Source of the DNA: a plasmid
Strand: one strand, 5' to 3'
Length of the DNA: 64,000 nt
Assembly (NCBI RefSeq): GCF_054482595.1
Contig: NZ_JBTHVH010000004.1
Position numbers and translations under genes: made by a program. Below, piece after piece: positions 3,464-53,832 of the stretch. Numbering within the stretch: position 1 is the stretch's first letter; each line of letters opens with the position of its first letter. Under the pieces are notes generated by a model. The model worked only from the letters and a program-made list of their open reading frames with translations, was not told the DNA's origin and did not search any database.

Positions 3464-3488
3464 ATTGATCACCGAAGAAGCGTATCCC

Positions 3489-8611: not shown

Positions 8612-8641
8612 ATATGACAAAACCGGGGTTTTCACCCCGGT
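8612..8641 (-). terminator. Rho-independent terminator candidate downstream of terW
   Basis: Hairpin arms 'ACCGGGG'/'CCCCGGT' followed on the minus strand by a U-rich run; lies 15-40 bp after the terW stop. Confidence 0.5.
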
Positions 8642-8654
8642 CTGAGATTTAGCG

Positions 8655-9122: not shown

Positions 9123-9139
9123 CGTAAGATTTAGCCTGC

Positions 9140-10348: not shown

Positions 10349-10358
10349 TATGATTTCC

Positions 10359-11318
10359 TTAATGATGCTGGGTCACGGTAAGTAATCTGATTCCATCAGC
10401 GCTTTGCTCGTTCTGTAACCCATAAAAACGAGCTCTGTCCAGAATGCCAGCCGCCCAGCGGCGATGTGTGGCGGGTTCACACATTGCTCCCTGCGACTTA
10501 AACACGGCCTGGGTAGAGTTCAGGATCCGCAGAGCGTCAGAATGCTCACCCTGAGTGACCATCAGCGCGTTTTGAATGACCTCTATCTGACCCGGGTGAA
10601 TGGCCGTTTTCCCAACAAGCCCATGTGCCATATCAAGAGCCAGCTCTCTGGCCATTACGGCATGATCGTCAATATGCTCACATACGGGCGCGGTCAGGGC
10701 AAAATCACGCGGGCCGAAGACCGAAACGAGCATTTTGATGACGTAGCCCATCGGGCTGTCATACAGCGTCAGGTCCCGGGGACGGCGAAGCGACACAACG
10801 TTCATAAGATCGTTGCCGCCGATTCGAAGCGCAATAATGCGGTCGTGGCAGGGATGTTCCACCAGACGGGTGGCCAGCTCCCGCATCTGAACCACGTCAA
10901 AGACGTCTTCTGTTTCCAGCGTTGGCATCATGCACAGGTGAGTCCCGCCCATGATATCCCACCATTCAGCTAACGAACTGAGGGTAAATTTCGGCAACAC
11001 AAACCCGTCGACAGCGGAAAGATCATAATGCGCTTTTAACCATCTGCCCATTTCGGCATGCCGGGGGCGAATGAACACCAGAGGCCAGTCATTTTTACCC
11101 AGGCTATGCATGCTGTTACTGAGCTCGTGCAGCAGGTGCTCCAGATTTTTGAGGGCGACGGGGATGTCTGCTTCACTGACAGCATCCTCCAGGCAAATCA
11201 CCAGAGAGCGCAAACCCGGGATTTTCCCGTGCAGGACGGCATCAGCAATATCTTCCCGTGTTGCAGGCATGTATAGCGTGGCTCCCAGATTCCAGGGAGA
11301 AAGACGATTTTTCATCAA
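10359..11318 (-). CDS. HpcH/HpaI aldolase / citrate-lyase beta (CitE)-like protein
   Basis: 'VICLEDAV' and 'ALRIGGNDL' motifs typical of the CitE/HpcH TIM-barrel family; 319 aa. Confidence 0.7.
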   Translation of the reverse strand: MMKNRLSPWNLGATLYMPATREDIADAVLHGKIPGLRSLVICLEDAVSEADIPVALKNLEHLLHELSNSMHSLGKNDWPLVFIRPRHAEMGRWLKAHYDLSAVDGFVLPKFTLSSLAEWWDIMGGTHLCMMPTLETEDVFDVVQMRELATRLVEHPCHDRIIALRIGGNDLMNVVSLRRPRDLTLYDSPMGYVIKMLVSVFGPRDFALTAPVCEHIDDHAVMARELALDMAHGLVGKTAIHPGQIEVIQNALMVTQGEHSDALRILNSTQAVFKSQGAMCEPATHRRWAAGILDRARFYGLQNEQSADGIRLLTVTQHH

Positions 11319-12394
11319 AGTACCTTCTTGATAATGGTTACAGCCCGATACTGGCCGAGGGTTCCCCCCATTTCTGTAACAACTATTCCCTTTTCACGAG
11401 CAAGCCCTACAAGCAAGGCAACGTCCGGGTCGTCAATAGAACGCACAAATACATGGTCCGGTACCCGACGTAATACAGCCCGGGTTGCTTCAGCAATACC
11501 GGGTTTTATACGATTGACGCTGTCCACTTTAAATTCATCGGCCAGGAACGCGATAACGTCGCGACTTGTCTGCCATAAGATCCGGGCTGACTCCGTATTC
11601 CAGCTCAGGGGAGCGAGGGATGACGGGGTTAACTTCTTACGGAAATGAGCGACGGTATCGACAAGCATCCGGCTGCATTCGAATTCACTGAGATGCTCGC
11701 AAACCATGCACCCGTGTAATCCTTCAGAGGACCACACTGACCGGGAGATCAGGCCTGACACCGGCGCACCCATGATGCCAAAAGGAATGAGCCAGTCATC
11801 ATCACTGGCTGCAAGCCAGGAGCAGCCACAGGGATCGGCCAGGACAACCAGTCGCGGCTGCTCAGGATAGCCCGGGCGATCTTTCAGTGCGCGTACAAGC
11901 TCTCCGGTAATTGCGCCTTTACCTGTCCATCCGTCAACAAAGACAATACCGCTGGTACCATGCCGCTCTTCAATGACGTCGAGGGCTGCACCGTCAATTC
12001 CACGATCCCGGATAATGCTGATACCGTAATGCCATGAGGTTTTCCCCATGTCACGCAGGGCCTGGTGCAGCATAACGCCGAGCGGCACGCCAGCCCTGAC
12101 AAGACTGGCCAGTACAATGGGCTCATCACCAAAGCGTTTGGCCAGAGCAATAGCGAGCTGTGTGACTTCTTTTGCAAGTCTCTCTGCGCCCCGATCCAGC
12201 GCCCGGTGAAACAAATCAAGATGCCATTGTGTTGGCGCTGGCTCCTGACTGAGCATGTCCGAATAATGTTTCTTCCCTGACTGAATCAGCTCTTCTTTTT
12301 GCTCAACCGGCGTCATCTCAATGACAACCGGCTTTAGCAGAAATTCCACGTCACCGGGCTGGTATGAGCCGGTAAATGTGTCATGTGGCTGCAT
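11315..12394 (-). CDS. StiP-like protein (family annotated as cysteine protease StiP in ter-linked operons)
   Basis: About 360 aa Cys-containing ORF in the ter-linked operon position; ATG at 12394 with GGAG RBS preferred over the TTG at 12460. Family name is from recall, not motif proof. Confidence 0.5.
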   Translation of the reverse strand: MQPHDTFTGSYQPGDVEFLLKPVVIEMTPVEQKEELIQSGKKHYSDMLSQEPAPTQWHLDLFHRALDRGAERLAKEVTQLAIALAKRFGDEPIVLASLVRAGVPLGVMLHQALRDMGKTSWHYGISIIRDRGIDGAALDVIEERHGTSGIVFVDGWTGKGAITGELVRALKDRPGYPEQPRLVVLADPCGCSWLAASDDDWLIPFGIMGAPVSGLISRSVWSSEGLHGCMVCEHLSEFECSRMLVDTVAHFRKKLTPSSLAPLSWNTESARILWQTSRDVIAFLADEFKVDSVNRIKPGIAEATRAVLRRVPDHVFVRSIDDPDVALLVGLAREKGIVVTEMGGTLGQYRAVTIIKKVL

Positions 12395-12395
12395 T

Positions 12396-13169
12396 TTAAT
12401 TTTCTCCAAAAATTCGCTGTGAAATGGCATCTGCAAACTGACTCTGACGCGGGATGCCAAACCAGCTGCACAGTTTCATAAAACGATGATCGCTCAGGCT
12501 GTCGCCCAGGCCAATTACGGGGAAGACTCCGCGTTCAGCCCGAAGTTTTTCAAGCAGCCATCTGACGGCCAGCCCTTTCTCAACCGGGGTGGGAAGCCAG
12601 GCCACGTTATTACTGTTGCGGTGGATGTAGAAGCCCTCGGTCGGAAACACCGTTTCTATCTCATCTGCAATGGCATTGAGCTCGTCAAGGCGGGTGCTGT
12701 CGCGGTGCTTCATCACCATATAAACCGCCGTTTCACCGTATTCGAAGTTCAGCCTTGCCCAGGCATTGATCCCTTTTGCGTCCATCATTTCAGTGATCAG
12801 ACGCTGCATCGATGTCAGCTTTTCCTGGTAGGGAGCCAGCTGGCCAAGCATATGGGCCTTCCACTCCTCGTCGGGTTTGCCTTCAGGCGTGAGAATGACG
12901 GCCCCGTGCGTGGTGATTGCCCAGGAGTGGAAAGGGATCCGGACGCGGCTGATTTCTTCAGTTCCCCGGGCGGTAACAGGTATGAGTTCAGCCTGCTCCA
13001 GGAGCCAGTCCACCAACATGGACTGTTCTTCCGTCATAAAGCTTCGTGGATTCAGGGTGCGATCAACGGCACCGGTACGGAATGGCTCCAGGGCCAGCTC
13101 GTCCACCATTTTACGACGGGTCTGAAAGAGCGTGTCGTCAAGGTCGCTCAGAACAACGGGTTTATTCAT
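12396..13169 (-). CDS. HAD-superfamily hydrolase (phosphatase)
   Basis: HAD motif I 'VLSDLDDTLF' directly after the start 'MNKPVV' (ATG at 13169). The 112-codon N-extension in the track ORF is rejected because it overlaps the upstream PRTase gene. Confidence 0.75.
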   Translation of the reverse strand: MNKPVVLSDLDDTLFQTRRKMVDELALEPFRTGAVDRTLNPRSFMTEEQSMLVDWLLEQAELIPVTARGTEEISRVRIPFHSWAITTHGAVILTPEGKPDEEWKAHMLGQLAPYQEKLTSMQRLITEMMDAKGINAWARLNFEYGETAVYMVMKHRDSTRLDELNAIADEIETVFPTEGFYIHRNSNNVAWLPTPVEKGLAVRWLLEKLRAERGVFPVIGLGDSLSDHRFMKLCSWFGIPRQSQFADAISQRIFGEN

Positions 13170-14304
13170 AGGTAACAATCTCCACGACGGGCGCAACCTC
13201 AGCCAGGGCTTTAAGAAGCTGCGTGTCAATACTTTCTGCGGGTGTCTCAGTACACACAAGAATACGGTCAAACTGCTGGTGGGCGACGTTATAGACAAAA
13301 TTGGGGATGCCCAGCCCGTAGTTATCCGTAAAGGAAATGGCGGACTCAATGGCATAACCAACGGCGATAGGGGAGCGGGTGGTCGAACCATAAAGTGCCT
13401 GTGCTCCGGCAGCTTCGAGCCGTTCAGCAAGCAGGAACGGCTCCCAGACGAATTCCCCGGTCCCGAGAACCAGAATACGTTCCCCCTTGCGGACGGAGAC
13501 CTCATGGCCGAGATCGGCCGCAGGTGCGAGCATCCCCAGTCGACCCCAGGACTGTTTTCCCAGGATGTCCCATTCTCCGCGTGAAGTTACGTTGACTTTC
13601 GGCATGTCCGGGACAGGTGCATCAGGTAATGGGGTCCATCCCCACTGACCGCTTACAAGCGAAACCGAAGTGACGGGCAAGGATGTGCGCTCCGACAGGG
13701 CGTTGCTACTCCAGTCGGTAAGCGTAACGGCGATAACCTGTTCAATATGTTGAAGCTTGCCGGTATTACGCAGGGCAGAAAGCAGGTTAATAAAGGTATT
13801 ACCGGTGGTTGCCTCGTCATCAATCAAAACCAGCGTTCGTGCGTTGGTAACACGACGTCTTTTCTCTTCATCATCTGGCAGATAGATCAGATGATCGGTG
13901 GCGTGGCTGTGTTCTTCCTTGAACTCGCAAAGTAACGTGCCATCAACCGGGTGACGGGTAGAGGTCAGATAGACAGATTCACGATGCTGGTGGCGCACTT
14001 CATCAAACACACCGGCCCCTAGCCCAACGGCGGTTTCAGCCATACCGATAAAAAGTACGGGCCCTGCCAGCGTTGCGGGGAACTGGCTGGCAAGCTGTCT
14101 GTAGGCCTGCCGCATGACTGAGGGTGGCACGGGAATGTGCCTGCCGAGTACTTTGCTGACAAACAGAAAGGCGCGTTTCGGGTTACGTCTTTCAGCGATA
14201 TCAAACAGGTCATCGAGCGAAACATCACCCTGGTCGCGGGTTACCTGTATCGTACCGCATGAGAGGGTACGGCGATAAATCATATCTTCGAGGGTATCAG
14301 ACAT
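13162..14304 (-). CDS. Phosphoribosyltransferase-domain protein (PRTase_2/TRSP-like)
   Basis: PRPP-binding signature 'TLVLIDDEATTGNTF'; about 380 aa; ATG at 14304. Confidence 0.75.
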   Translation of the reverse strand: MSDTLEDMIYRRTLSCGTIQVTRDQGDVSLDDLFDIAERRNPKRAFLFVSKVLGRHIPVPPSVMRQAYRQLASQFPATLAGPVLFIGMAETAVGLGAGVFDEVRHQHRESVYLTSTRHPVDGTLLCEFKEEHSHATDHLIYLPDDEEKRRRVTNARTLVLIDDEATTGNTFINLLSALRNTGKLQHIEQVIAVTLTDWSSNALSERTSLPVTSVSLVSGQWGWTPLPDAPVPDMPKVNVTSRGEWDILGKQSWGRLGMLAPAADLGHEVSVRKGERILVLGTGEFVWEPFLLAERLEAAGAQALYGSTTRSPIAVGYAIESAISFTDNYGLGIPNFVYNVAHQQFDRILVCTETPAESIDTQLLKALAEVAPVVEIVTYE

Positions 14305-14313
14305 AAACACGCC

Positions 14314-15372
14314 TTAATTCAGATGGTTAGAGAGTGATTCCGGGTAAACGATGACATCTGTGATGGATCTCACTGCAACCGGAGAAAAGGTATTTCTGGC
14401 GCTCTGGATCACCGCATCTTCAGACATCAGACCGAGCTTAAAGGCAGCAAACAACCCGGGAAGGTTCACCCCGCTGTGAAGGGTATAACCCACCCCGCCT
14501 GACGGACGCATGTTGGTTTCAAGCAGCACCGGGTTGCCATTCACATCGTTTCGCGTCTGAACATTCACCAGCCCGTCGGCCTTCATAACCCGGGCGCAGT
14601 CACAAGCCAGTTCCCAGGCGCTTCCTTCGTTTACCAGATACTGGATAGCCCCTTCCTTACGGCGTCCCACGGCTGCGAGTATTTCGCCCTTATCCGCGAG
14701 GATATCGACGGAAAATTCCGGGCCTGGCAGGTACGGCATCAAAACAAGGGGTTTAAACGACTCAGAAGCCGATGCTGCTGCAATATACTGTTGCGGACTG
14801 ACCAGACGATGTTCGGGATGATTAAAGACGGCCATGGGCGAAGCACTGTCATCAAAGCGCCAGAATCCCATGCCATAGATACCCGTCACCGGCTTCACGC
14901 ATACCGGGCTGTCCGAGAACGGCGGGGCCGCGAGGTGCGTCTTTAATTCTGCCAGCGTATTCACCCGCCAGGACGGTACGACCGGGAGCCCGTTTTGCTC
15001 CATAAACTGAGCAAAAGTAACTTTTTCGTCAGCCAGAGTTAACCAGTCGACGCCTGTTGCACCGGTAGTAAGGGTGGCTCCGGTCGATTCAATGGCTGAA
15101 CGGTGTTCTTCAAACCACTGGCTGTTACGGCCAGTATGAATATGGTGGATGCCGTAGGTCTGAATGGTTTCCTGAATAAACTGAAGACGTTTTTGAGGAT
15201 CTTCAGGTTCAGTCAAAGAATAATCGGCAACGGAAAGAATTTCATGTCTTTCGTTACGGTGGGAGGCAAATACGGTAATAGCAAAATTATTTTTTTGTGC
15301 AAATGATTTTACCCCCTGAATAATATCTCGCTGGGAGGACAAACCTTCCATAAACCAAATTTTCTTGTTCAT
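14314..15372 (-). CDS. ATP-grasp family enzyme
   Basis: ATP-grasp motif 'LLETNMRPSGG'; first gene of the minus-strand operon, divergent from terZ. Confidence 0.75.
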   Translation of the reverse strand: MNKKIWFMEGLSSQRDIIQGVKSFAQKNNFAITVFASHRNERHEILSVADYSLTEPEDPQKRLQFIQETIQTYGIHHIHTGRNSQWFEEHRSAIESTGATLTTGATGVDWLTLADEKVTFAQFMEQNGLPVVPSWRVNTLAELKTHLAAPPFSDSPVCVKPVTGIYGMGFWRFDDSASPMAVFNHPEHRLVSPQQYIAAASASESFKPLVLMPYLPGPEFSVDILADKGEILAAVGRRKEGAIQYLVNEGSAWELACDCARVMKADGLVNVQTRNDVNGNPVLLETNMRPSGGVGYTLHSGVNLPGLFAAFKLGLMSEDAVIQSARNTFSPVAVRSITDVIVYPESLSNHLN

Positions 15373-27215: not shown

Positions 27216-27461
27216 ATGAGAGAGCCAAGACCACGCCATACCTTGCAGGTCATTCGTGTACCTTCTCTGGAGGTTCAGGACCTGGGGCTGACCAGCTTTG
27301 ATAGCTGGCTTGACGAGCACGGGTATGACAAAACGAATGCCAGAAATAACCGTACCATCTGGGCGAGAGAAGGCGGATGGCATCTGAAACGTTGCAGAAA
27401 TCTTGAAACTGGCACGGACGATTTCTGGTTTATCGCTTTCGATGGTAAAGGCGGGAAGATT
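27216..27461 (+). pseudogene. Hypothetical gene truncated at its 3' end by IS26
   Basis: The reading frame runs directly into the IS26 terminal inverted repeat at 27462. Confidence 0.4.
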
Positions 27462-30729: not shown

Positions 30730-31619
30730 GGCGTGTCGCAAACACTTTTGGAGGCAGCTATCACCCAGCCAAGGCCGGTATTTTCATGCTTTGTTAACCT
30801 TTTGCAGTCCGAAGAGGCGCGCAAGCAAATCATTCTGGTCATTGACGGTCCAGCCGCCTGAAAAGCCAAAGCCCTTCCGCAGCCACAGCATCGCCTCGAA
30901 ACCCGCGATGGTTCGCCGCGCCGTGTTAAAGGATTGGAAACCGCCGATCTTCGGCATGTTCTTCTTCACCCGGAAATGGTCGCTCTCAATCCCCTGCTGG
31001 AGATGTTTGGTCACATAATGCACGGGATCGGGATGGAGAAGCCCATCATCAACCGACGTTTTGATCGTTGACGGGAAGGTGTTGGCCCCGTCCGTCCCAA
31101 TCCTGTTCGGCGACAACAAGGGTTCATCTTTAAGCATCTTTCGGAAGAACCGCTTGGCAGCGTCGAGATCGCGCTTAGCGGTCAGCAGGAAATCCACCGG
31201 ATTGCCATGCTTATCGATGGCTCGGTACAGATAGCGCCATTTGCCGCGGATCTTGACATAGGTCTCATCAATCCGGACCGAGCCGCAATGGGGTCGACGA
31301 AACTGCCGCAGCCGTTTCTCGATGACAGGTGCATAAGCCAATACCCAGCGGTTGATCGTGCTATGATCGACCTCGAAGCCCCGCTCGCGAAACATCTCTT
31401 CCAAGTCACGATAGCTGAGCGGGTAGCGCAAGTACCAGGCAACCGCCTGTACAATCAGCCAGGCCTCGAAATGCCTGCCCTTGAAATCATCCTTCGACTG
31501 GCGCTTCAGCTTTTCGGCAATGGTATTCAAAATCATCGGCTCGCTCCGCAATATCAGGAGCGGCAACTTCTCTCCCCATGGTCAACATCGAGTTAACCTG
31601 AAGAATTTGCGACAAGGCC
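30730..31619 (-). mobile_element. IS6-family insertion sequence, distinct from IS26 (about 890 bp)
   Basis: Imperfect terminal repeats GGCGTGTCGCAAA (left) and GGCCTTGTCGCAAA (right, reverse complement) flanking a 260-aa IS6-type transposase; exact IS name not determined. Confidence 0.7.
30784..31566 (-). CDS. IS6-family transposase (260 aa)
   Basis: Same domain layout as IS26 Tnp ('FKGRHFEAWLIVQAVAWYLRYPLSYRDLEEM...') but divergent in sequence. Confidence 0.8.
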   Translation of the reverse strand: MPLLILRSEPMILNTIAEKLKRQSKDDFKGRHFEAWLIVQAVAWYLRYPLSYRDLEEMFRERGFEVDHSTINRWVLAYAPVIEKRLRQFRRPHCGSVRIDETYVKIRGKWRYLYRAIDKHGNPVDFLLTAKRDLDAAKRFFRKMLKDEPLLSPNRIGTDGANTFPSTIKTSVDDGLLHPDPVHYVTKHLQQGIESDHFRVKKNMPKIGGFQSFNTARRTIAGFEAMLWLRKGFGFSGGWTVNDQNDLLARLFGLQKVNKA

Positions 31620-33121
31620 ATGCGTTCCGCTCCGGAGATGTCTGGCTTACTAGGTCCCGGCGCTATGGCGATCTGAAACACGCACTCGTTCCGGCACAAT
31701 CCATCGCGGAAGGCGGTCGTCTCGCTGTGCCATTGCGGCCGGAGGAATGGCTGGCAGACCGGCAAGCTCGCCTCGACATGCGGTTGCGCGAGCTTGGCCG
31801 TGCCGCTCGCGCAGGCACGATCCCGGGCGGGTCGATTGAAAACGGCGTTCTGCATATCGAGAAACTCGAAGCCGCCGCGCCGACAGGCGCCGAAGATCTG
31901 GTGCTCGATCTCTACAAGCAGATCCCGCCCACGCGCATCACCGATCTCCTGCTGGAGGTGGATGCGGCGACCGGCTTCACCGAAGCGTTCACCCATCTGC
32001 GCACAGGAGCACCCTGCGCTGACCGGATCGGGCTAATGAACGTTATCTTGGCGGAAGGGATCAACCTCGGCTTGCGCAAAATGGCGGATGCGACAAACAC
32101 CCACACCTTCTGGGAATTGATCCGCATTGGACGGTGGCATGTCGAGGGCGAAGCCTATGACCGGGCGCTGGCCATGGTGGTCGAGGCACAGGCAGCGTTA
32201 CCCATGGCCCGGTTCTGGGGCATGGGCACGTCGGCTTCGAGCGACGGACAGTTCTTCGTCGCTACAGAGCAAGGTGAGGCCATGAACCTGGTCAACGCGA
32301 AATATGGCAATACCCCGGGCCTGAAAGCCTATAGCCACGTCTCCGACCAATATGCGCCGTTCGCAACCCAGGTGATTCCTGCAACGGCAAGCGAAGCGCC
32401 TTACATCCTCGATGGCCTGCTGATGAACGATGCTGGACGCCATATCCGCGAGCAGTTCACCGACACGGGCGGCTTCACCGATCACGTCTTTGCCGCATGT
32501 GCCATTCTCGGCTACCGGTTCGCTCCGCGCATCCGCGACCTGCCATCCAAACGGCTCTACGCGTTCAATCCGTCGGCCGCCCCGGCGCACCTGCGAGCGT
32601 TGATCGGCGGAAAGGTCAACCAAGCCATGATCGAGCGCAATTGGCCCGACATCCTGCGCATCGCCGCCACCATTGCTGCCGGGACCGTCGCGCCAAGCCA
32701 GATTCTGCGGAAACTCGCCTCCTATCCGCGGCAGAACGAGCTCGCGACAGCCCTGCGGGAAGTCGGTCGCGTCGAGCGCACCCTGTTCATGATCGACTGG
32801 ATTCTGGATGCCGAACTCCAACGGCGTGCCCAGATCGGGCTCAACAAAGGCGAAGCTCATCATGCGCTGAAGCGGGCAATCAGCTTCCACCGCCGCGGTG
32901 AAATCCGCGACCGTTCCGCCGAAGGCCAGCATTACCGCATCGCCGGCATGAATCTGCTCGCCGCCATCATCATCTTCTGGAACACCATGAAGCTCGGCGA
33001 GGTCGTTGCAAACCAGAAACGCGATGGAAAGCTGCTATCGCCCGATCTCTTGGCCCATGTTTCGCCGCTCGGATGGGAACACATCAATCTCACCGGAGAA
33101 TATCGCTGGCCAAAGCCTTAG
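31620..33121 (+). pseudogene. tnpA: 5'-truncated Tn3-family transposase gene (Tn5393-type tnpA, C-terminal about 500 codons)
   Basis: Homologous by eye to the C-terminal half of the 995-aa TnpA at 50492..53479 ('...SPLGWEHINLTGEYRW'); the track ORF start lies inside the IS6 element so the 5' end is missing. Confidence 0.7.
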
Positions 33122-33153
33122 CGTAGGATTCCGCCCCCTCCCGCAAACGACCC
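33073..33153. repeat. Tn5393-type 81-bp terminal inverted repeat (tnpA end)
   Basis: Reverse complement reads 'GGGGTCGTTTGCGGGAGGGGGCGGAATCCTACGCTAAGGCTTTGGCCAGCGATATTCTCCGG...', matching the recalled Tn5393 IR; overlaps the tnpA 3' end. Confidence 0.6.
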
Positions 33154-33154
33154 C

Positions 33155-34219: not shown

Positions 34220-35035
34220 TCAGAAAAACTCATCGAGCATCAAATGAAACTGCAATTTATTCATATCAGGATTATCAATACCATATTTTTGAAAAAGCCG
34301 TTTCTGTAATGAAGGAGAAAATTCACCGAGGCAGTTCCATAGGATGGCAAGATCCTGGTATCGGTCTGCGATTCCGACTCGTCCAACATCAATACAACCT
34401 ATTAATTTCCCCTCGTCAAAAATAAGGTTATCAAGTGAGAAATCACCATGAGTGACGACTGAATCCGGTGAGAATGGCAAAAGCTTATGCATTTCTTTCC
34501 AGACTTGTTCAACAGGCCAGCCATTACGCTCGTCATCAAAATCACTCGCATCAACCAAACCGTTATTCATTCGTGATTGCGCCTGAGCGAGACGAAATAC
34601 GCGATCGCTGTTAAAAGGACAATTACTAACAGGAATCGAATGCAACCGGCGCAGGAACGCTGCCAGCGCATCAACAATATTTTCACCTGAATCAGGATAT
34701 TCTTCTAATACCTGGAATGCTGTTTTCCCGGGGAGCGCAGTGGTGAGTAACCATGCATCATCAGGAGTACGGATAAAATGCTTGATGGTCGGAAGAGGCA
34801 TAAATGCCGTCAGCCAGTTTAGTCTGACCATCTCATCTGTAACATCATTGGCAACGCTACCTTTGCCATGTTTCAGAAACAACTCTGGCGCATCGGGCTT
34901 CCCATACAATCGATAGATTGTCGCACCTGATTGCCCGACATTATCGCGAGCCCATTTATACCCATATAAATCAGCATCCAGGTTGGAATTTAATCGCGGC
35001 CTCGAGCAAGACGTTTCCCGTTGAATATGGCTCAT
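34220..35035 (-). CDS. aph(3')-Ia: Aminoglycoside 3'-phosphotransferase APH(3')-Ia (kanamycin/neomycin resistance)
   Basis: 'MSHIQRETSCSRPRLNSNLDADLYGYKWARDNVGQSGATIYRLYGKPDAPELFLKHGKG...' matches recalled Tn903 AphA1. Confidence 0.9.
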   Translation of the reverse strand: MSHIQRETSCSRPRLNSNLDADLYGYKWARDNVGQSGATIYRLYGKPDAPELFLKHGKGSVANDVTDEMVRLNWLTAFMPLPTIKHFIRTPDDAWLLTTALPGKTAFQVLEEYPDSGENIVDALAAFLRRLHSIPVSNCPFNSDRVFRLAQAQSRMNNGLVDASDFDDERNGWPVEQVWKEMHKLLPFSPDSVVTHGDFSLDNLIFDEGKLIGCIDVGRVGIADRYQDLAILWNCLGEFSPSLQKRLFQKYGIDNPDMNKLQFHLMLDEFF

Positions 35036-35264: not shown

Positions 35265-35345
35265 GGGGTCGTTTGCGGGAGAGGGCGAAATCCTACGCTA
35301 AGGCTTTGGCCAACGATATTCTCCGGTAAGATTGATGTGTTCCCA
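35265..35345. repeat. Tn5393-type 81-bp terminal inverted repeat (strB end)
   Basis: 'GGGGTCGTTTGCGGGAGAGGGCGAAATCCTACGCTAAGGCTTTGGCCAACGATATTCTCCGG...' immediately downstream of strB. Confidence 0.6.
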
Positions 35346-45033: not shown

Positions 45034-46594
<1,561 letters not shown>

Positions 46595-46703
46595 CTGTCA
46601 GACCAAGTTTACTCATATATACTTTAGATTGATTTAAAACTTCATTTTTAATTTAAAAGGATCTAGGTGAAGATCCTTTTTGATAATCTCATGACCAAAA
46701 TCC

Positions 46704-46741
46704 CTTAACGTGAGTTTTCGTTCCACTGAGCGTCAGACCCC
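46704..46741. repeat. Tn2/Tn3 38-bp terminal inverted repeat
   Basis: 'CTTAACGTGAGTTTTCGTTCCACTGAGCGTCAGACCCC' downstream of blaTEM. Confidence 0.85.
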
Positions 46742-47355
46742 GTATATCGCTTGCTGATTACGTGCAGCTTTCCCTTCAGGCGGGATTCATACAGCGGCCA
46801 GCCATCCGTCATCCATATCACCACGTCAAAGGGTGACAGCAGGCTCAGAAGACGCTCCAGTGTGGCCAGAGTGCGTTCACCGAAAACGTGCGCCACAACT
46901 GTCCTCCGTATCCTGTCATACGCGTAAAACAGCCAGCGCTGACGTGATTTAGCACCGACGTAGCCCCACTGTTCGTCCATTTCAGCGCAGACAATCACAT
47001 CACTGCCCGGTTGTATGCGCGAGGTTACCGACTGCGGCCTGAGTTTTTTAAGTGACGTAAAACCGTGTTGAGGCCAACGCCCATAATGCGGGCAGTTGCC
47101 CGGCATCCAACGCCATTCATGGCCATATCAATGATTTTCTGGTGCGTACCGGGTTGAGAAGCGGTGTAAGTGAACTGCAGTTGCCATGTTTTACGGCAGT
47201 GAGAGCAGAGATAGCGCTGGTGTCCGGCAGTGCTTTTGCCGTTACGCACCACCCCGTCAGTAGCTGAACAGGAGGGACAGCTGATAGAAACAGAAGCCAC
47301 TGGAGCACCTCAAAAACACCATCATACACTAAATCAGTAAGTTGGCAGCATCACC
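46742..47355 (-). mobile_element. IS1, truncated (about 614 bp; insA intact, insB 3'-truncated)
   Basis: Matches the full IS1 at 37288..38055 from an internal point to the insA-proximal end '...GTTGGCAGCATCACC'; abuts the Tn2 IR. Confidence 0.85.
47025..47300 (-). CDS. insA: IS1 InsA
   Basis: Near-identical to insA at 37725..38000. Confidence 0.85.
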
Positions 47356-47401
47356 CGATGCAGCTTTCGTCAATCATGACAGTTATGAGTTTTCCGGTTA
47401 C

Positions 47402-47725
47402 TTATCCATTTTTGCCAGCGTGTTCCGCAACATCTGTTTTACTGTTTACACAGCACTCTTCACGTAAGAATTCGATGATAGCTTCCAGTATTTCGTATTG
47501 AGAGACACACATGAGCGTTCGACTCTCCCGGTTTTGTGTGACGAGCCCTACTGATACCAGGGCTGAAATATGATGACTTAACGTTGATGAGGGAATGCCA
47601 AGCTGCTTTTGCAATTCACCTACAGGCAAACCTTGTTCTCCAGCTTTTACAAGATGTTTGAATATGAACAAACGGGTCGGGTGACCCAGCTCTTTTAGTG
47701 CTTTAGCTACTTCTTCCAGTTGCAT
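47402..47725 (-). CDS. ArsR/SmtB-family metalloregulatory transcriptional repressor
   Basis: 107 aa with HTH 'LPVGELQKQLGIPSSTLSHHISAL' and C-terminal Cys pair 'ECCVN'. Confidence 0.7.
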   Translation of the reverse strand: MQLEEVAKALKELGHPTRLFIFKHLVKAGEQGLPVGELQKQLGIPSSTLSHHISALVSVGLVTQNRESRTLMCVSQYEILEAIIEFLREECCVNSKTDVAEHAGKNG

Positions 47726-47830
47726 GTGACAACCCTCTGTCTAATGATATTTCGATAATACCAGAAATATCTTGACCAGAATTATATTTCGATTATTCTA
47801 GAAACGTAGATTTTGTCAAGAGGGTTTAGT

Positions 47831-48964
47831 ATGAATAGTTGGATTTCTATGCTGCAAGATGCCGCAGAGATGTTTTTGTTTTTGGCCGTCGAGCTATCTT
47901 TGCTGTTTATTGTCATCAGTGCCGGTGTGAGCCTGATAAGGCAAAAGGTCCCGGACCATAAAATCCAGCAATTGATAGGGGCGAAAAAAGGAAAAGGCTA
48001 CCTGCTGGCCTCGTTGTTGGGAGCCGTTACCCCTTTCTGTAGTTGCTCAACAATTCCAATGCTACGAGGGTTGTTGTCGGCGAAAGCAGGGTTTGGTCCG
48101 ACACTCACTTTTTTGTTTGTTTCACCGTTGCTTAATCCCATTATCGTGGGGTTAATGTGGGTTACCTTTGGCTGGAAAGTAACTTTGTTGTACGCGATCA
48201 TCGCTGCCGGTGTCTCAGTCCTTGCCAGTATCGTATTGGATTTACTAGGATTTGAACGTCATATTGTTGATCACAAAAACTCAGCATCAAGTGGTTGCAC
48301 CACGAAATGCGATGATTCCGAAGCTTCGGTAAAAACGTCGGCGGGTTCCAGTTGTTGCAGCACTAGCTCGACTCAATTGCCTTTAAAAACGAGTTGCTGT
48401 ACTTCATCAGCGAACCCCATAATTAACTTAAGGACGGTAAAGAACGAGCAGAACGTATCAGCGTGTTGTTCATCAATATCATCTGAACAACCAGCTGTTA
48501 GCTGTTGCAGCAGCGAGAATCTGGGCAATGTGAATCTCACAACGAATACCACCTCTGGCCCAATAAAGTTAGCTATGAAAGATGCCTTACAGCAGTTTAA
48601 GGATGTTCTGCCTTATCTTTTGTTAAGTGTATTAATAGGTTCATTTATTTATGGCTTTATCCCTTCAGAGTGGATTGCAGCTCATGCCGGAGCAGATAAT
48701 CCCTTAGCCATACCGCTGAGTGCAGTTGTTGGTATTCCGTTGTATATCCGCGCAGAGGCAGTGATACCACTTGCATCAGTGCTGATGACTAAAGGAATGG
48801 GCCTGGGGGCATTAATGGCCTTGATAATCGGTAGTGCTGGAGCGAGTTTGACAGAAGTAATACTGCTTAAATCAATGTTCAGAATGCCTATGATAGTCGC
48901 TTTTCTGACAGTAATCCTGGGTATGGCCATACTTATGGGGTATCTGACCCAATTGCTTTTTTAA
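47831..48964 (+). CDS. Permease with conserved 'TPFCSCS' motif (ArsP-like) and Cys/Ser-rich central loop
   Basis: Multi-TM protein; 'VTPFCSCSTIP' motif; divergent from the arsR-like gene; ATG at 47831 preferred over TTG at 47813. Confidence 0.6.
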   Translation: MNSWISMLQDAAEMFLFLAVELSLLFIVISAGVSLIRQKVPDHKIQQLIGAKKGKGYLLASLLGAVTPFCSCSTIPMLRGLLSAKAGFGPTLTFLFVSPLLNPIIVGLMWVTFGWKVTLLYAIIAAGVSVLASIVLDLLGFERHIVDHKNSASSGCTTKCDDSEASVKTSAGSSCCSTSSTQLPLKTSCCTSSANPIINLRTVKNEQNVSACCSSISSEQPAVSCCSSENLGNVNLTTNTTSGPIKLAMKDALQQFKDVLPYLLLSVLIGSFIYGFIPSEWIAAHAGADNPLAIPLSAVVGIPLYIRAEAVIPLASVLMTKGMGLGALMALIIGSAGASLTEVILLKSMFRMPMIVAFLTVILGMAILMGYLTQLLF

Positions 48965-48988
48965 TAATAATAGTAAGGGTCTTCTGGT

Positions 48989-49808
48989 GGCACTGTTGCA
49001 AATAGTCGGTGGTGATAAACTTATCATCCCCTTTTGCTGATGGAGCTGCACATGAACCCATTCAAAGGCCGGCATTTTCAGCGTGACATCATTCTGTGGG
49101 CCGTACGCTGGTACTGCAAATACGGCATCAGTTACCGTGAGCTGCAGGAGATGCTGGCTGAACGCGGAGTGAATGTCGATCACTCCACGATTTACCGCTG
49201 GGTTCAGCGTTATGCGCCTGAAATGGAAAAACGGCTGCGCTGGTACTGGCGTAACCCTTCCGATCTTTGCCCGTGGCACATGGATGAAACCTACGTGAAG
49301 GTCAATGGCCGCTGGGCGTATCTGTACCGGGCCGTCGACAGCCGGGGCCGCACTGTCGATTTTTATCTCTCCTCCCGTCGTAACAGCAAAGCTGCATACC
49401 GGTTTCTGGGTAAAATCCTCAACAACGTGAAGAAGTGGCAGATCCCGCGATTCATCAACACGGATAAAGCGCCCGCCTATGGTCGCGCGCTTGCTCTGCT
49501 CAAACGCGAAGGCCGGTGCCCGTCTGACGTTGAACACCGACAGATTAAGTACCGGAACAACGTGATTGAATGCGATCATGGCAAACTGAAACGGATAATC
49601 GGCGCCACGCTGGGATTTAAATCCATGAAGACGGCTTACGCCACCATCAAAGGTATTGAGGTGATGCGTGCACTACGCAAAGGCCAGGCCTCAGCATTTT
49701 ATTATGGTGATCCCCTGGGCGAAATGCGCCTGGTAAGCAGAGTTTTTGAAATGTAAGGCCTTTGAATAAGACAAAAGGCTGCCTCATCGCTAACTTTGCA
49801 ACAGTGCC
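48989..49808 (+). mobile_element. IS26 copy 5, flanked by an 8-bp target-site duplication CTTCTGGT
   Basis: Identical 8-mer at 48981..48988 and 49809..49816 directly abutting the inverted repeats; the only IS26 copy with a duplication. Confidence 0.95.
49052..49756 (+). CDS. tnpA: IS26 transposase
   Basis: Identical to the other copies. Confidence 0.95.
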   Translation: MNPFKGRHFQRDIILWAVRWYCKYGISYRELQEMLAERGVNVDHSTIYRWVQRYAPEMEKRLRWYWRNPSDLCPWHMDETYVKVNGRWAYLYRAVDSRGRTVDFYLSSRRNSKAAYRFLGKILNNVKKWQIPRFINTDKAPAYGRALALLKREGRCPSDVEHRQIKYRNNVIECDHGKLKRIIGATLGFKSMKTAYATIKGIEVMRALRKGQASAFYYGDPLGEMRLVSRVFEM

Positions 49809-49919
49809 CTTCTGGTTTCATGTTGAACAAAGAAGACCCTTTAGCTTCTGTAATCCATTTAATCAGTCTGAATGAAATAGATTATAAATTCTGCTCTGCA
49901 TACCTGCTTAACCAAAGTC

Positions 49920-50314
49920 TCATGATTCTGATTGTCGGTACAGTGCCTGAATGTGGCATATCTGGGAGGTGCTGTACCCTGTTGCATCTGCCGTTTCTTT
50001 CTTGACCTGCCGGTAGTAAAGTACCTTTTGATGCCGTTCCTGAGCGACCTGTTTTCCCTGATATTTACCCAGCGTATGTGCGAGTTCAACTCCCTGCTTT
50101 TGGCGCTGGCGGTCAATTTGCTCGACCAGCAAAATATCATTGCGGTGACTGTCCATCAGTAAGCGACCCAGTTCCGGTCGGTCAAGTTTTGTACCGCTGA
50201 TATTCTCCCGGTAGTAACTGGCTATTTTATGCCCCCGCTCCTAAACAAACTGCTCCAGCATCTCTTTTGCCCGATCGGTGAACTGATCTTCCGTCTATGC
50301 CCTTAAATAAGTGC
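49920..50314 (-). pseudogene. Serine recombinase (resolvase/invertase-like) pseudogene
   Basis: Conceptual translation 'MFISTYLRA*TEDQ...LEQFV*ERGHKIASYYRENISGTKLDRPELGRLL...TGYSTSQICHIQALYR': two in-frame TAG codons, the first at the expected catalytic-Ser position (Y.R.S.T.DQ), and a shortened central region. Confidence 0.55.
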
Positions 50315-50491
50315 TGATGAACATTTTTTCACCGCATTACCGCATTTAGGTTATTGCATTTAATCTATCGCATATAGGCTATGTCGTTCATTGTGTGCCG
50401 TCACGTTTAGATTATGGTGTCAGGGTATACCCTTATGCGATAACCATTTTTGTTAAAAATAACGCATCGAATAATTTATGAGGAAAACTAT

Positions 50492-53479
50492 ATGGCAAGG
50501 AGGCAGATTCTTTCTCTGTCGGAAAGAGAATCATTACTGGCATTACCGGACGATGAGTTAACGCTGACCCGAATGGCCTATTTCAGTGAGCATGATCTGG
50601 CGCTTATCAGTGCTCACCGTAAACCCGCCAGCCGTTTTGGTTTTGCCGTCCTTCTTTGCTATCTGAAAAATGTCGGCTTTGCCCCGGATAAAAAAATCTC
50701 TCCCTCTGATGCGCTGCTGAAGCATATCGCCAGCAGGCTAAAGCTTACCGGGGATCTCTGGCCTGCTTACCTTTCCGGCCGGGATACGACCCTGCGTGAG
50801 CATTTAACCGAACTGTACCGCTATCTTGGCGTAAAGGCGTTCACCGGCAAAATACAGCAGGACTGTATTACGCACCTGTTATCGATGGCGACGCGCACCG
50901 ATAAAGGCATTCTCCTAGCCGAAGAGTTACTTGTCTATCTCCGGCAGAACAACGTGATAATCCCCGCGATTGATGTCGTGGAGCGTACCTGTGCTGAAGT
51001 CATGGCAGGCGGCGATAAAATCGTATTTCAGACCCTGAATGCCCCGTTAACTCCGGCTCACAGGGATGCCCTGGATCATTTACTTGAGTCATCAGATAAT
51101 CAGCCTTCCAGGCTGACATGGCTTCTGCAACCGCCGGGTAAAATCAATGGTAAGAACGTGCTGCAACATCTTGATCGGCTCAGCAGCATTGAATCGCTGG
51201 CATTACCTGAAGGTATAGATCGTACCATTCACCAGAACCGGTTGCTGAAACTGGCGCGGGAAGGCCGAAAGATGAGTAGCCGGGATTTGACCCGATTTTC
51301 AGCTGCCCGGCGTCATGCGATCCTGGTGTGCGTGCTGGAAGAAGCCAGAGCCACACTGACAGACGAAGTGATTGAGCTGCATGAGCGAATGCTGAATAGT
51401 CTTTTCAGCAAAGCCAAACGAACACAGGCTGAGCGCCTTCAGCAGACCGGAAAGCTGATCCAGTCAAAACTGAGGCAGTACATCGATGTCGGTCAGGCGC
51501 TGTCTGATGCCCGTGATTCCGGTGGCGATCCCTGGCTCGCAATAGAAAACATACTCCCATGGGCTGAATTTGTCGCCAGTCTGGATGAAACACGCCATCT
51601 CGCCAGAAAAAATAATTTTGACCCGCTGCATATTATTACCGAGAAATACAGCACATTACGGAAATATGCCCCACGCATGTTGTCCGCTTTACAGTTAGTC
51701 GCAACCCCGGCAGCGCAACCTCTGGCTGATGCACTGGTTGTGATCAAGGATATGTACCGGAAGCAGTCACGTAAAGTTCCGGCGGCAGCGCCGCTTGAGT
51801 TTGTCCCTGAAAGCTGGCGCAAGGTGGTGATTACACCTGTGGGTATTGACCGGCAGTACTATGAGTTTTGTGCACTCAGCGAGCTTAAGGGGGCGTTGCG
51901 CTCCGGGGATATCTGGGTTAAAGGCTCGCGCCGCTACAAAAATTTTGATGATTACCTCATACCCGAGAAGGACTTTGACAAACTCACACCGGCACTGCCA
52001 CTGCCCGTATCTGCTGATTATCATGAGTACATTACCAGCCGTATGACCCTGCTTCAGTCCAGACTTGAAGAGGTCAATGCCATGGCTGCCCTTGGTGAAC
52101 TGCCCGATGTGGAAATATCCGACAGGGGCGTAAAAGTCTCTCCGCTGGATAACTGCGTTCCGGCGCAGGTTTCACCGCTGGCAGAGCTGGTTTACAGCAT
52201 GCTACCGCGACCTAAAATCACGGAAATTCTCGATGAGGTAAACAGCTGGACGACGTTTACCCGACATTTTTCGCATATAAAAAATGACATTACCCGTCCC
52301 GATACCCGCTTGCTCCTCACCACCATTCTTGCGGATGGCATCAATCTTGGCCTGACCAAAATGGCAGAAGCCTGCCCCGGGAGCACCAAATCATCACTCG
52401 AAGATATTCAGGCATGGTACATCCGTGACGAAACCTATTCAGCCGCTCTTGCAGAGCTGGTAAATGCGCAGGGGAAAAGACCGTTGGCGGCATTTTGGGG
52501 AGACGGAACAACGTCATCATCAGATGGACAAAATTTCAGAACCGGCAGCTCAGGCCGCTACGCAGGGCAGGTTAACCCGAAATATGGGCAAGAGCCTGGA
52601 CGTCAGTTTTATACCCATATTTCGGATCAATACAGCCCGTTTTACACCTGCATAATCAGTCGGGTCAGGGATTCAACCCATGTTCTCGATGGCTTGCTGT
52701 ACCACGAAAGCGACCTGGAAATCAGGGAACATTACACCGATACCGCTGGTTTCACCGATCATGTCTTTGCCCTGATGCATCTGTTGGGATTTGCGTTCTG
52801 TCCGCGAATCAGGGATCTCCACGACAAAAAACTGTTTATCAAAGGGAAAGCAGAGAAATACCCGGCGCTTCAGTCACTGATATCAACGACCAGCCTGAAT
52901 CTGAAAGAGATCGAAATCCACTGGCGTGAAGTGCTGCGTCTGGCAACCTCGATAAAGCAGGGAACCGTGACGGCATCCCTGATGCTGAAAAAGCTTGCCA
53001 GCTATCCCAAGCAAAACGGACTTGCCAAAGCACTGAGAGAAATTGGCCGCATTGAGCGAACCCTGTTTATGCTCGACTGGTTCCGCGACCCGGCTCTGCG
53101 TCGGCGGGTACAGGCGGGGCTGAATAAAGGCGAAGCCCGTAACGCGCTGGCGCGTGCGGTATTTATGCACCGACTGGGAGAAATCAGGGACAGAAAACCG
53201 GAAAATCAGAGCTATCGCGCCAGTGGACTGACGCTGCTGACGGCTGCCATATCCCTGTGGAATACCGTCTATATGGAAAGAGCGGTCGATGCCCTGAAGC
53301 GTAAAGGGGTGAAGATCAACGAGCAACTGCTGTCGCATTTGTCGCCGTTGGGCTGGGAACACATCAATCTGACAGGTGATTATATCTGGAAAAGCAACCG
53401 GATACCGGCTTCTGGTAAGTTTCGTCGGCTAAGACCAGCTAAAGTCGAAAGGTCAAAAAACAGCCTTAACGTACAATAA
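50492..53479 (+). CDS. tnpA: Tn3-family transposase TnpA (995 aa)
   Basis: Full-length; conserved C-terminal '...HYTDTAGFTDHVFALMHLLGF...LSPLGWEHINLTGDYIW'; ATG at 50492 with AGGAAAAC RBS. Confidence 0.85.
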   Translation: MARRQILSLSERESLLALPDDELTLTRMAYFSEHDLALISAHRKPASRFGFAVLLCYLKNVGFAPDKKISPSDALLKHIASRLKLTGDLWPAYLSGRDTTLREHLTELYRYLGVKAFTGKIQQDCITHLLSMATRTDKGILLAEELLVYLRQNNVIIPAIDVVERTCAEVMAGGDKIVFQTLNAPLTPAHRDALDHLLESSDNQPSRLTWLLQPPGKINGKNVLQHLDRLSSIESLALPEGIDRTIHQNRLLKLAREGRKMSSRDLTRFSAARRHAILVCVLEEARATLTDEVIELHERMLNSLFSKAKRTQAERLQQTGKLIQSKLRQYIDVGQALSDARDSGGDPWLAIENILPWAEFVASLDETRHLARKNNFDPLHIITEKYSTLRKYAPRMLSALQLVATPAAQPLADALVVIKDMYRKQSRKVPAAAPLEFVPESWRKVVITPVGIDRQYYEFCALSELKGALRSGDIWVKGSRRYKNFDDYLIPEKDFDKLTPALPLPVSADYHEYITSRMTLLQSRLEEVNAMAALGELPDVEISDRGVKVSPLDNCVPAQVSPLAELVYSMLPRPKITEILDEVNSWTTFTRHFSHIKNDITRPDTRLLLTTILADGINLGLTKMAEACPGSTKSSLEDIQAWYIRDETYSAALAELVNAQGKRPLAAFWGDGTTSSSDGQNFRTGSSGRYAGQVNPKYGQEPGRQFYTHISDQYSPFYTCIISRVRDSTHVLDGLLYHESDLEIREHYTDTAGFTDHVFALMHLLGFAFCPRIRDLHDKKLFIKGKAEKYPALQSLISTTSLNLKEIEIHWREVLRLATSIKQGTVTASLMLKKLASYPKQNGLAKALREIGRIERTLFMLDWFRDPALRRRVQAGLNKGEARNALARAVFMHRLGEIRDRKPENQSYRASGLTLLTAAISLWNTVYMERAVDALKRKGVKINEQLLSHLSPLGWEHINLTGDYIWKSNRIPASGKFRRLRPAKVERSKNSLNVQ

Positions 53480-53502
53480 TTTTCGATATCCAAACTGACC
53501 CC
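53465..53502. repeat. Tn3-family 38-bp terminal inverted repeat overlapping the tnpA stop
   Basis: 'CTTAACGTACAATAATTTTCGATATCCAAACTGACCCC' shares the CTTAACGT..GACCCC ends of the Tn3 IR; no partner left IR found in the window. Confidence 0.55.
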
Positions 53503-53832
53503 GAATACAAGGACAATGCCGGTACCGCCTGATTACTTCTGGCGTCGTCTACAATGTTACTCCAGGCATATGCTGCGTCGTCCGGGGTTTGTTTTGGATC
53601 TATGTCCAATGTCGGCCAGACGTGGCCCTGATGATTCTTGCCCTTTGTACAGGAAGTGATTAAGTGTACTGAGCGTTCAGAGAACATTATCTTCCTTACA
53701 TACCCATAGAACAGCTTTCTAAGAACGGTGGGCTCGGCTGAAAATTACAAATCAGCCCCTTTCACGGCATCATTTTGATTCTTCGCGTCTGCCCCAGTAA
53801 GATGACCGGTTTTCTGCATGACAGTGTTATTC

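What the first reader, a model, noticed from the sequence alone, without database searches (positions are those of the whole stretch)
50315..53502. Intact Tn3-family transposase with one recognisable terminal repeat and no partner
The full 995-aa tnpA ends inside a 38-bp Tn3-like repeat, but the matching left repeat is not found in the window. The element is probably immobile on its own yet may mobilise in trans or through one-ended transposition.
Basis: seen in the sequence. Interest (0 to 1): 0.3.

Follow-up and report, generated by a model that had tools for sequence, protein, structure and literature searches.

The report
Truncated TnEc1-like transposon remnant
This is the right-hand remnant of a common Tn3-family (TnEc1-like) transposon at the edge of the drug-resistance region of an IncHI2 plasmid: its transposase gene is whole, but its left end is gone and its resolvase gene is dead. 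The arrangement is ordinary and already described.

Summary
A 995-aa Tn3-family transposase gene (50492-53479, +) ends inside a 38-bp terminal repeat (53465-53502). No partner repeat exists in the window, nor anywhere in a fully scanned sister plasmid.

It continues leftwards across an IS26 insertion (48989-49808, 8-bp duplication CTTCTGGT). It then runs through a dead resolvase gene, a PF03773 permease gene and an ArsR-type regulator gene, and into an IS1 copy that is cut at 46742 by a Tn2 end.

Complete copies of the same element occur in other plasmids. pVM01 has both 38-bp repeats and the 5-bp duplication TACAA. Only about 460 bp of the left end is missing here.

The transposase is 91% identical to TnEc1's and 98% identical to that of a formaldehyde-cargo relative resembling Tn7489/Tn6901. 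One paper on IncHI2 plasmids already labels this structure "ΔTnEc1" and reports the same IS26 duplication.

The remnant cannot move as a unit. One-ended transposition, action in trans and target immunity are plausible from Tn3-family biology but were not shown. This is an already known, low-interest structure.

The parts
53465..53502 (-). The right 38-bp terminal inverted repeat (IRR), the only one of its kind in the window. Its outer end GGGG abuts the IncHI2 backbone at GAATA (53503-53507).
   Evidence: The repeat is identical to both ends of complete copies in pVM01 and pECTm80, and to the IRR of TnEc1.
50492..53479 (+). tnpA, an intact 995-aa Tn3-family DDE transposase. It differs from the copy in complete elements by one residue, R101L (nucleotide 50793, G>T).
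50325..50491 (.). The tnpR-tnpA intergenic region, presumed to be the res site and the divergent promoters. This is inferred from its position and its conservation in relatives.
   Evidence: Alignment with a relative that has an intact tnpR. The consensus promoter scan was uninformative.
49920..50324 (-). tnpR pseudogene (serine resolvase). The codon aligning with the Ser of the N-terminal RAST(E)DQ stretch is TAG (50295-50297). A second in-frame TAG lies at 50241-50243. There is also a 222-bp internal deletion and a 12-bp deletion.
   Evidence: The same double-stop segment is present in complete copies.
48989..49808 (+). An IS26 inserted into the transposon between the permease gene and tnpR. 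It is flanked by the 8-bp duplication CTTCTGGT (48981-48988 and 49809-49816), so nothing was deleted at this point.
   Evidence: The copy without IS26 in E. albertii is contiguous across this site. The same duplication is reported in PMC8920835.
47831..48964 (+). Cargo gene for a PF03773 (ArsP_1, 'predicted permease') membrane protein. Its substrate is unknown.
   Evidence: below the NCBIfam cut-offs for the Cu/Zn efflux and SaoE families.
47402..47725 (-). Cargo gene for an ArsR/SmtB-family metalloregulator, divergent from the permease gene.
46742..47355 (-). IS1 remnant of about 614 of 768 bp. The same IS1 insertion is present in complete copies. Here it is cut by the end of Tn2. The transposon's left 460 bp (IRL, 269 bp of transposon sequence and 153 bp of IS1) is missing beyond this point.
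46704..46741 (-). The Tn2/Tn3 38-bp end next to a 5'-truncated blaTEM. It is not part of the element but marks where the element is broken off.

Best explanation
Window 46742-53502 is the right-hand remnant of a Tn3-family transposon of the TnEc1 / Tn6901 (Tn7489) clade. Its original layout was IRL, about 270 bp, [IS1], arsR, PF03773 permease, decayed tnpR, res, tnpA, IRR. That is 6,394 bp with IS1, or about 5.6 kb without it.

The most likely history is as follows. The element inserted into the IncHI2 backbone at GAATA. An IS26 then landed cleanly between the permease gene and tnpR. Tn2 inserted into the resident IS1. Further IS26-associated rearrangements built the 26-kb multiresistance region (27462-53502) and removed the transposon's left 460 bp together with 5.76 kb of adjacent backbone.

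What remains is an intact, probably active transposase gene, the neighbouring res region and one terminal repeat. With one end and no resolvase, it cannot transpose as a defined unit.

Three residual activities can be inferred from Tn3-family biology but are not shown here: target immunity conferred on the plasmid by the single repeat plus TnpA, supply of TnpA in trans to elements with the same repeats, and rare one-ended transposition or cointegrate formation.
For: Shown here:
- tnpA is intact and of the Tn3 family.
- The window holds a single 38-bp repeat.
- Window 49809-53502 matches the complete copy in E. albertii plasmid NZ_CP024287 at 3693 of 3694 bases. Window 46741-48998 matches the adjoining part of that copy at 99.3%.
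- That copy has a perfect IRL, and so do pVM01 and pECTm80. The 5-bp duplications are TACAA and ATATA.
- The IS26 has the 8-bp duplication CTTCTGGT.
- IS1 is cut at the Tn2 end.
- The empty site in IncHI2 plasmid pP136-1 reads ...ACCT GAATA CAAGG. Window 27220-27461 equals the backbone 5.76 kb to the left of that site.
- tnpR is decayed, and identically so in complete copies.
- A sister IncHI2 plasmid scanned over its whole length has one repeat only.
- TnpA is 91% identical to a PGAP-labelled TnEc1 transposase, with identical repeats. It is 98% identical to the frmR-frmA cargo relative.

From the literature: IncHI2 NDM-5 plasmids are drawn with 'IS26 upstream of ΔTnEc1' and the duplication CTTCTGGT (PMC8920835).
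Against: - No PLSDB record carries the predicted ancestral left junction (IncHI2 backbone, GAATA, IRL). Zero records covered at least 80% of the constructed junction query. The complete ancestral insertion in IncHI2 is therefore inferred, not observed.
- The window's own parent replicon outside the 64 kb could not be examined.
- The IncHI2 copy carries a private R101L change of unknown effect. Tn4430 TnpA has Leu at the aligned position, which argues that the change is tolerated.
- No functional test of any residual activity was possible.
Confidence: 0.88

Rival explanations
1. The IRR-backbone junction was made by one-ended transposition. TnpA acted on the single right repeat and carried a variable length of donor DNA into the IncHI2 backbone. 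On this reading a complete two-ended insertion never existed at this site.
For: No plasmid in PLSDB has the predicted left junction. One-ended transposition with variable far end-points is documented for Tn21-type elements (Avila et al. 1988, cited in PMC4133298). The dead tnpR would leave cointegrate-like products unresolved.
Against: The left side has been overwritten by Tn2 and IS26 events and a 5.76-kb backbone deletion, which fully explains the missing junction. The internal structure (IS1, arsR, permease, tnpR pseudogene) is the same as in two-ended copies flanked by duplications. One-ended events are much rarer than normal transposition.
Confidence: 0.07
2. The remnant is still part of a working hybrid transposon, in which the IRR pairs with a heterologous Tn3-family end in the window. 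The Tn5393-type end at 35265-35302 (+) would bracket about 18 kb of resistance genes. A hybrid of this kind has been proposed for Tn6952.
For: The orientation is correct for 35265 (+) against 53502 (-). One paper proposes that a unit bounded by dissimilar TnAs3 and TnAs1 ends (67.5% identity) formed a cointegrate (PMC8193513).
Against: The two ends differ at 17 of 38 positions. The flanking 5 bp do not match: ATAAA against GAATA. As general background knowledge, not tested here, Tn3-family transposases are usually specific for their own repeats. The only nearer end, that of Tn2, lies in the same orientation as the IRR, so the two are not inverted.
Confidence: 0.02
3. The transposase is inactive despite its open frame, because the lineage-specific R101L change in the N-terminal DNA-binding region disables it. 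The remnant would then be inert.
For: R101L is the only difference in 3,694 bp from the copy found in complete elements. Arg is kept in the TnEc1-labelled and frm-cargo relatives.
Against: Tn4430 TnpA, an active transposase with solved structures, has Leu at the aligned position. There are no other lesions. A single substitution at a variable position is weak evidence of inactivation.
Confidence: 0.1

Closest known systems
TnEc1 (ISfinder Tn3-family element). The example used here is CP056619.1 positions 2296-6149, annotated by PGAP as 'Tn3-like element TnEc1 family transposase'.
   Same: The IRR is identical over 38 bp and the IRL matches at 37 of 38. TnpA is 91% identical over 989 aa. The core layout is the same: tnpR and tnpA divergent around an intergenic res region, with tnpA ending inside the repeat. 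The literature labels this very remnant in IncHI2 plasmids ΔTnEc1 (PMC8920835).
   Different: TnEc1 is a 3.85-kb cryptic element with an intact resolvase and no cargo. The window element carried arsR-permease cargo and an IS1, has a dead tnpR, has lost its left end, and is split by IS26. PGAP names its transposase only 'Tn3 family transposase'.
Tn7489 / Tn6901 / Tn6399-type formaldehyde-resistance transposons (frmR-frmA-gloA-frmB cargo). The relative examined here is CP124985.1 (locus L004).
   Same: TnpA is 98% identical. The 38-bp repeats are the same. The architecture is the same: IRL, cargo, tnpR, res, tnpA, IRR. The relative has a 5-bp duplication, TTTCA. The family is described in bioRxiv 10.1101/2022.09.12.507718.
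   Different: The cargo differs: an ArsR regulator and PF03773 permease here, frm genes there. The relative has an intact 211-aa resolvase, where the window has a pseudogene. The 3' part of tnpR and the sequence downstream of it are much more divergent.
Complete copies of the same arsR-permease transposon, for example pVM01 (NC_010409, 6,394 bp with IS1) and E. albertii plasmid NZ_CP024287.
   Same: The shared part is 99.3-99.97% identical in nucleotides. It includes the IS1 insertion and the tnpR pseudogene.
   Different: Those copies keep the IRL and lack the IS26. pVM01 has the 5-bp duplication TACAA. Their TnpA has Arg101.
The solo-end 'Tn3-like' remnant described in pECTm80 (PMC3332091).
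   Same: The 38-bp repeats and the left-end sequence are the same. The element there was likewise remodelled by IS1 and by another transposon.
   Different: In pECTm80 both repeats and the duplication survive but tnpA is truncated. In the window, tnpA survives and one repeat is lost.

Membership tests
Tn3-family transposon | A DDE transposase of about 1,000 aa with the Tn3 catalytic domain and the N-terminal DNA-binding region | tested here: met
   Pfam DDE_Tnp_Tn3 E=5e-148 and DUF4158 E=5e-40. NCBIfam transpos_Tn3 scores 1128 bits against a cut-off of 500. End-to-end alignment with Tn4430 TnpA, E=2e-214.
Tn3-family transposon | Two terminal inverted repeats of about 38 bp (GGGG...ACGYTAAG), with tnpA ending inside one of them | tested here: not met
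   Only the right repeat is present, at 53465-53502. The best other site in the window has 14 mismatches. Both repeats are present in sibling copies, so this is a truncated member, not a different kind of element.
Tn3-family transposon | A 5-bp target-site duplication | not testable with these tools
   Only one junction survives, with GAATA at 53503-53507. The empty site in pP136-1 shows a single GAATA. Sibling copies have 5-bp duplications: TACAA, ATATA and TTTCA.
Tn3-family transposon | A cointegrate-resolution module (res site plus a functional resolvase) | tested here: not met
   tnpR has two in-frame stops, one at the codon aligning with the Ser of the N-terminal RAST(E)DQ stretch, and deletions of 222 bp and 12 bp. 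The intergenic res region is conserved.
Tn3-family transposon | Replicative transposition through cointegrates, and target immunity | not testable with these tools
   This needs genetic assays.
TnEc1 clade (TnEc1, Tn6901/Tn6399/Tn7489) | The clade's terminal repeat sequence | tested here: met
   38 of 38 identity with the IRR of a PGAP-labelled TnEc1 and of the frm-cargo relative.
TnEc1 clade (TnEc1, Tn6901/Tn6399/Tn7489) | Close transposase identity | tested here: met
   91% aa identity to the TnEc1-labelled protein and 98% to the frm-cargo relative. In my judgement 91% makes it a close relative of TnEc1 itself rather than the same element.
TnEc1 clade (TnEc1, Tn6901/Tn6399/Tn7489) | The layout IRL, (cargo), tnpR, res, tnpA, IRR | tested here: met
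   The same order is seen in L010, L004 and L006 and in the window remnant, apart from the missing left end.

The most novel reading that the evidence does not exclude
Two features could make the remnant active rather than inert: its resolvase-repressor is dead, so tnpA may be expressed without repression, and it keeps one perfect repeat. It could then supply transposase in trans to cassettes bounded by the same repeats, such as the 2.4-kb oxidoreductase/ArsR cassette seen on a Col156 plasmid. It could also drive one-ended, unresolved cointegrates that fuse IncHI2 plasmids with other replicons.
Probability: 0.1. Interest if true: 0.3.

Novelty: already known. Interest (0 to 1): 0.1.

Why it matters
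It matters little beyond correct annotation. The remnant marks the right-hand boundary of the multiresistance region in a widespread lineage of IncHI2 plasmids from food animals and people. Its junctions are useful markers for tracing that lineage: the IS26 duplication CTTCTGGT, IRR followed by GAATA, and the R101L change. If the orphan transposase is active, it could mobilise cassettes bounded by the same repeats or promote plasmid fusions, but nothing here shows that.

Tried and rejected
- A full-text search for the repeat sequence in papers found nothing.
- The consensus promoter and terminator scan of 49800-53700 gave no more sites than shuffled sequence, and no tnpA promoter call in the res region. 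No claim about expression is made.
- A constructed query joining the IncHI2 backbone, GAATA and the transposon's left end found no record with the ancestral junction.
- Several hits to that query extended 12 bp into the backbone part. On inspection this was chance similarity of an unrelated flank.
- Serratia IncHI2 plasmids that matched the query in two pieces carry a different clade member, inserted about 455 bp away. They do not carry the ancestral insertion.
- pFORC82_1 (IncHI2A+IncN) has both repeats, but in a different place and without a clean 5-bp duplication. It is not the ancestor either.
- The 8-bp similarity between the window's right flank (GAATACAA) and pVM01's left flank was judged coincidental. 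The two positions are not equivalent.
- Pairing of the IRR with the Tn5393-type or Tn2 ends in the window was rejected on sequence, orientation and flanks.
- No plasmid in PLSDB is colinear with the whole resistance region of the window; the best covers 84%. The exact parent could therefore not be identified.
- Some fetched loci did not appear in the scripting folder, so they were examined with the locus tools instead.
Full report

Yes. The plus strand carries an open frame at 50450-53479. The probable start is the ATG at 50492, preceded by GAGGA, which gives 995 residues.

The protein matches Pfam DDE_Tnp_Tn3 (E=5e-148) and DUF4158 (E=5e-40). It matches NCBIfam transpos_Tn3 at 1128 bits. It aligns over its whole length with the structurally solved Tn4430 transposase.

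The last four codons and the stop lie inside GGGGTCAGTTTGGATATCGAAAATTATTGTACGTTAAG, read on the minus strand at 53465-53502. A search allowing 3 mismatches finds only this copy, and no shuffle gave any match. My own scan shows that the next best site on either strand has 14 mismatches.

The window holds three other Tn3-type ends, but they belong to other elements. Two are Tn5393-like (33117-33154 minus, 35265-35302 plus) and one is the Tn2/Tn3 end (46704-46741 minus).

**2. What is really there?**

The window comes from an IncHI2-type multiresistance plasmid. The region is 100% identical to many Salmonella and E. coli IncHI2A plasmids. There are five IS26 copies.

Reading the minus strand from 50324 gives a serine-resolvase gene (Pfam Resolvase) that is thoroughly dead:
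- The codon that aligns with the Ser of the N-terminal RAST(E)DQ stretch in the intact relative is TAG (50295-50297). By general knowledge of serine recombinases this is the catalytic serine; that was not tested here.
- A second in-frame TAG lies at 50241-50243.
- 222 bp are missing from the middle, and 12 bp from the C-terminal part.

The key comparison is with an E. albertii plasmid, NZ_CP024287. There the same sequence continues leftwards without IS26 into a PF03773 permease gene, an ArsR/SmtB regulator gene, an IS1 and 269 bp more, ending in a perfect inverted copy of the 38-bp repeat.
- Window 49809-53502 equals that copy at 3693 of 3694 bases.
- Window 46741-48998 equals the adjoining part at 99.3%.

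The IS26 at 48989-49808 is flanked by CTTCTGGT on both sides. It is the only one of the five IS26 copies with a duplication. It is therefore a simple insertion, and the transposon is contiguous across it.

To the left, the IS1 is cut at 46742 by the end of Tn2, which sits next to a 5'-truncated blaTEM. The transposon lacks only its left 460 bp: the left repeat, 269 bp of transposon sequence and 153 bp of IS1.

**3. Complete relatives and family**

pVM01 carries the whole element: 6,394 bp with IS1, both repeats perfect, flanked by TACAA. pECTm80 has both repeats and the duplication ATATA around a rearranged version. Its authors described this as a Tn3-like remnant (PMC3332091).

The left-end sequence occurs at full length in 242 plasmid records. 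The 87-bp tnpR segment with both stop codons is present exactly in every copy I fetched that includes that part of tnpR. These include the pVM01 copy with its duplication and a P1-like phage-plasmid. This cargo variant therefore appears to have spread without its own resolvase.

The transposase is 98% identical to that of a relative with frmR-frmA-VOC-fghA cargo and an intact resolvase. That relative has the same repeats and the duplication TTTCA. It corresponds to the Tn7489/Tn6901/Tn6399 type described in bioRxiv 10.1101/2022.09.12.507718.

The transposase is 91% identical to a protein that PGAP labels as TnEc1 family, in a 3.85-kb cryptic element with the same repeats. A paper on NDM-5 IncHI2 plasmids draws this structure as 'IS26 upstream of ΔTnEc1' and reports the 8-bp duplication CTTCTGGT (PMC8920835). 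That is the junction seen here. The structure is therefore already known, even if its cargo and its dead resolvase are not discussed in the passage I read.

**4. How was the left end lost?**

An IncHI2 plasmid without this resistance region (pP136-1) has the uninterrupted site ...ACCT GAATA CAAGG. The window's repeat abuts GAATA. Window 27220-27461, just left of the first IS26, matches backbone lying 5.76 kb to the left of that site. The intervening backbone is absent from the window.

The 26-kb resistance region (27462-53502) therefore replaces 5.76 kb of backbone, and the transposon remnant forms its right edge. Its contents include aac(3)-IV, aph(4)-Ia, a Tn5393 fragment, a C45 peptidase gene, lnu(F), aadA and a truncated blaTEM. 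By their position and by the annotation of sister plasmids, aph(3')-Ia and strAB are also there.

The simplest history is a normal two-ended insertion at GAATA, followed by Tn2 insertion into IS1 and IS26-associated deletions. I could not find the predicted ancestral left junction in any PLSDB record, so this step is inferred. Origin by one-ended transposition cannot be formally excluded.

**5. Is there a partner elsewhere in the replicon?**

The parent replicon outside the window is not available. As a proxy I fetched all 254,873 bp of pS304_1, which has the identical IS26-remnant-backbone junction. I searched it for the outer 20 bases, the inner 19 bases and a degenerate form of the repeat. 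Only the one right-hand copy is present.

Three other plasmids that carry this tnpA end at 99.8-100% identity, at least one of them of IncHI2 size with the same backbone junction, showed a single matching place for queries that contain the repeat.

**6. Function**

Shown: the transposase frame is intact. Its only difference from the copy in mobile, complete elements is R101L (nucleotide 50793). Tn4430 TnpA has Leu at the aligned position, so the change is probably tolerated.

Inferred from Tn3-family biology:
- With one end, the remnant cannot transpose as a unit.
- One repeat plus TnpA may still confer target immunity on the plasmid.
- TnpA may act in trans on elements with the same repeats.
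- Rare one-ended events are possible (PMC4133298 and the references it cites).
- Loss of the resolvase, which in Tn3 also represses tnpA (general knowledge, not tested here), could raise transposase expression and leave cointegrates unresolved.

A possible substrate for action in trans exists in nature. It is a 2.4-kb cassette on a Col156 plasmid, bounded by repeats with 1 and 3 mismatches and flanked by AACATT.

**7. Verdict**

This is a routine, previously described transposon remnant. Novelty: already known. Interest: low.

Noticed in passing
window 49920-50324 (-); also L002 6430-6516, L006 12130-12216, L009, L011: The resolvase gene of this arsR-permease transposon is dead: two in-frame stops and two deletions. 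It is dead in exactly the same way in complete copies, including the pVM01 copy flanked by a 5-bp duplication. This cargo variant therefore seems to have spread without its own cointegrate-resolution enzyme.
   Followed up: partly
L003 (NZ_LR898877.1, a 7.45-kb Col156 plasmid) 1062-3436: A 2.4-kb cassette is bounded by inverted copies of the same 38-bp repeat, with 3 and 1 mismatches. It carries only an FAD-dependent oxidoreductase gene and an ArsR regulator gene, has no transposase, and has AACATT on both flanks. It looks like a non-autonomous cassette that would depend on a transposase of this clade supplied in trans.
   Followed up: partly
window 50793: The IncHI2 copy of tnpA has a private G>T change giving R101L. 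It is the only difference in 3,694 bp from the copy in complete elements and may serve as a lineage marker. Its effect on activity is unknown.
   Followed up: partly
window 31481-33154 and 35265-35302: There is a second orphan Tn3-family fragment: the C-terminal half of a Tn3-family transposase (546-aa ORF) ending in a Tn5393-type repeat at 33117-33154. A second Tn5393-type repeat at 35265-35302 faces it across a C45 peptidase gene and an ORF at 34220-35035. That ORF is presumed to be aph(3')-Ia from the sister-plasmid annotation. The 99-nt arms are 88% complementary.
   Followed up: no
window 45854-46741: blaTEM is truncated at its 5' end by the IS26 at 45034-45853. The remaining frame starts about 41 codons into the gene, so it is probably not expressed as a functional beta-lactamase. 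In the sister plasmid pS304_1 the gene is complete.
   Followed up: partly
window 27462-53502, compared with L008 243-6003: The 26-kb resistance region replaces 5.76 kb of IncHI2 backbone, including HNH endonuclease genes and an H-NS-family gene that are present in pP136-1. Only one of the five IS26 copies has a target duplication, which fits repeated IS26-mediated deletion or recombination.
   Followed up: partly
L012 (AP028550.1, Serratia marcescens IncHI2 plasmid) 7755-14787: A different member of the same transposon clade, with AhpD, AraC-regulator, MFS transporter and oxidoreductase cargo, sits about 455 bp from the window's insertion site in the same backbone and in the same orientation. 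This stretch of IncHI2 backbone may be a preferred target.
   Followed up: no
L002 (NZ_CP024287.1) 3014-3051: A degenerate copy of the repeat, with 7 mismatches and in the opposite orientation, lies 250 bp outside the left end of the complete element. The complete element there has no matching 5-bp flanks (TACTT against CATAA). This suggests an older insertion and later rearrangement at that site.
   Followed up: no
window 47402-48964: The cargo is an ArsR/SmtB regulator gene and a PF03773 ('ArsP_1') permease gene, and it scores below the NCBIfam cut-offs for the Cu/Zn and SaoE efflux families. Many of the listed carrier plasmids come from poultry and pigs. Whether the permease exports an organoarsenical or a metal is unknown.
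   Followed up: no
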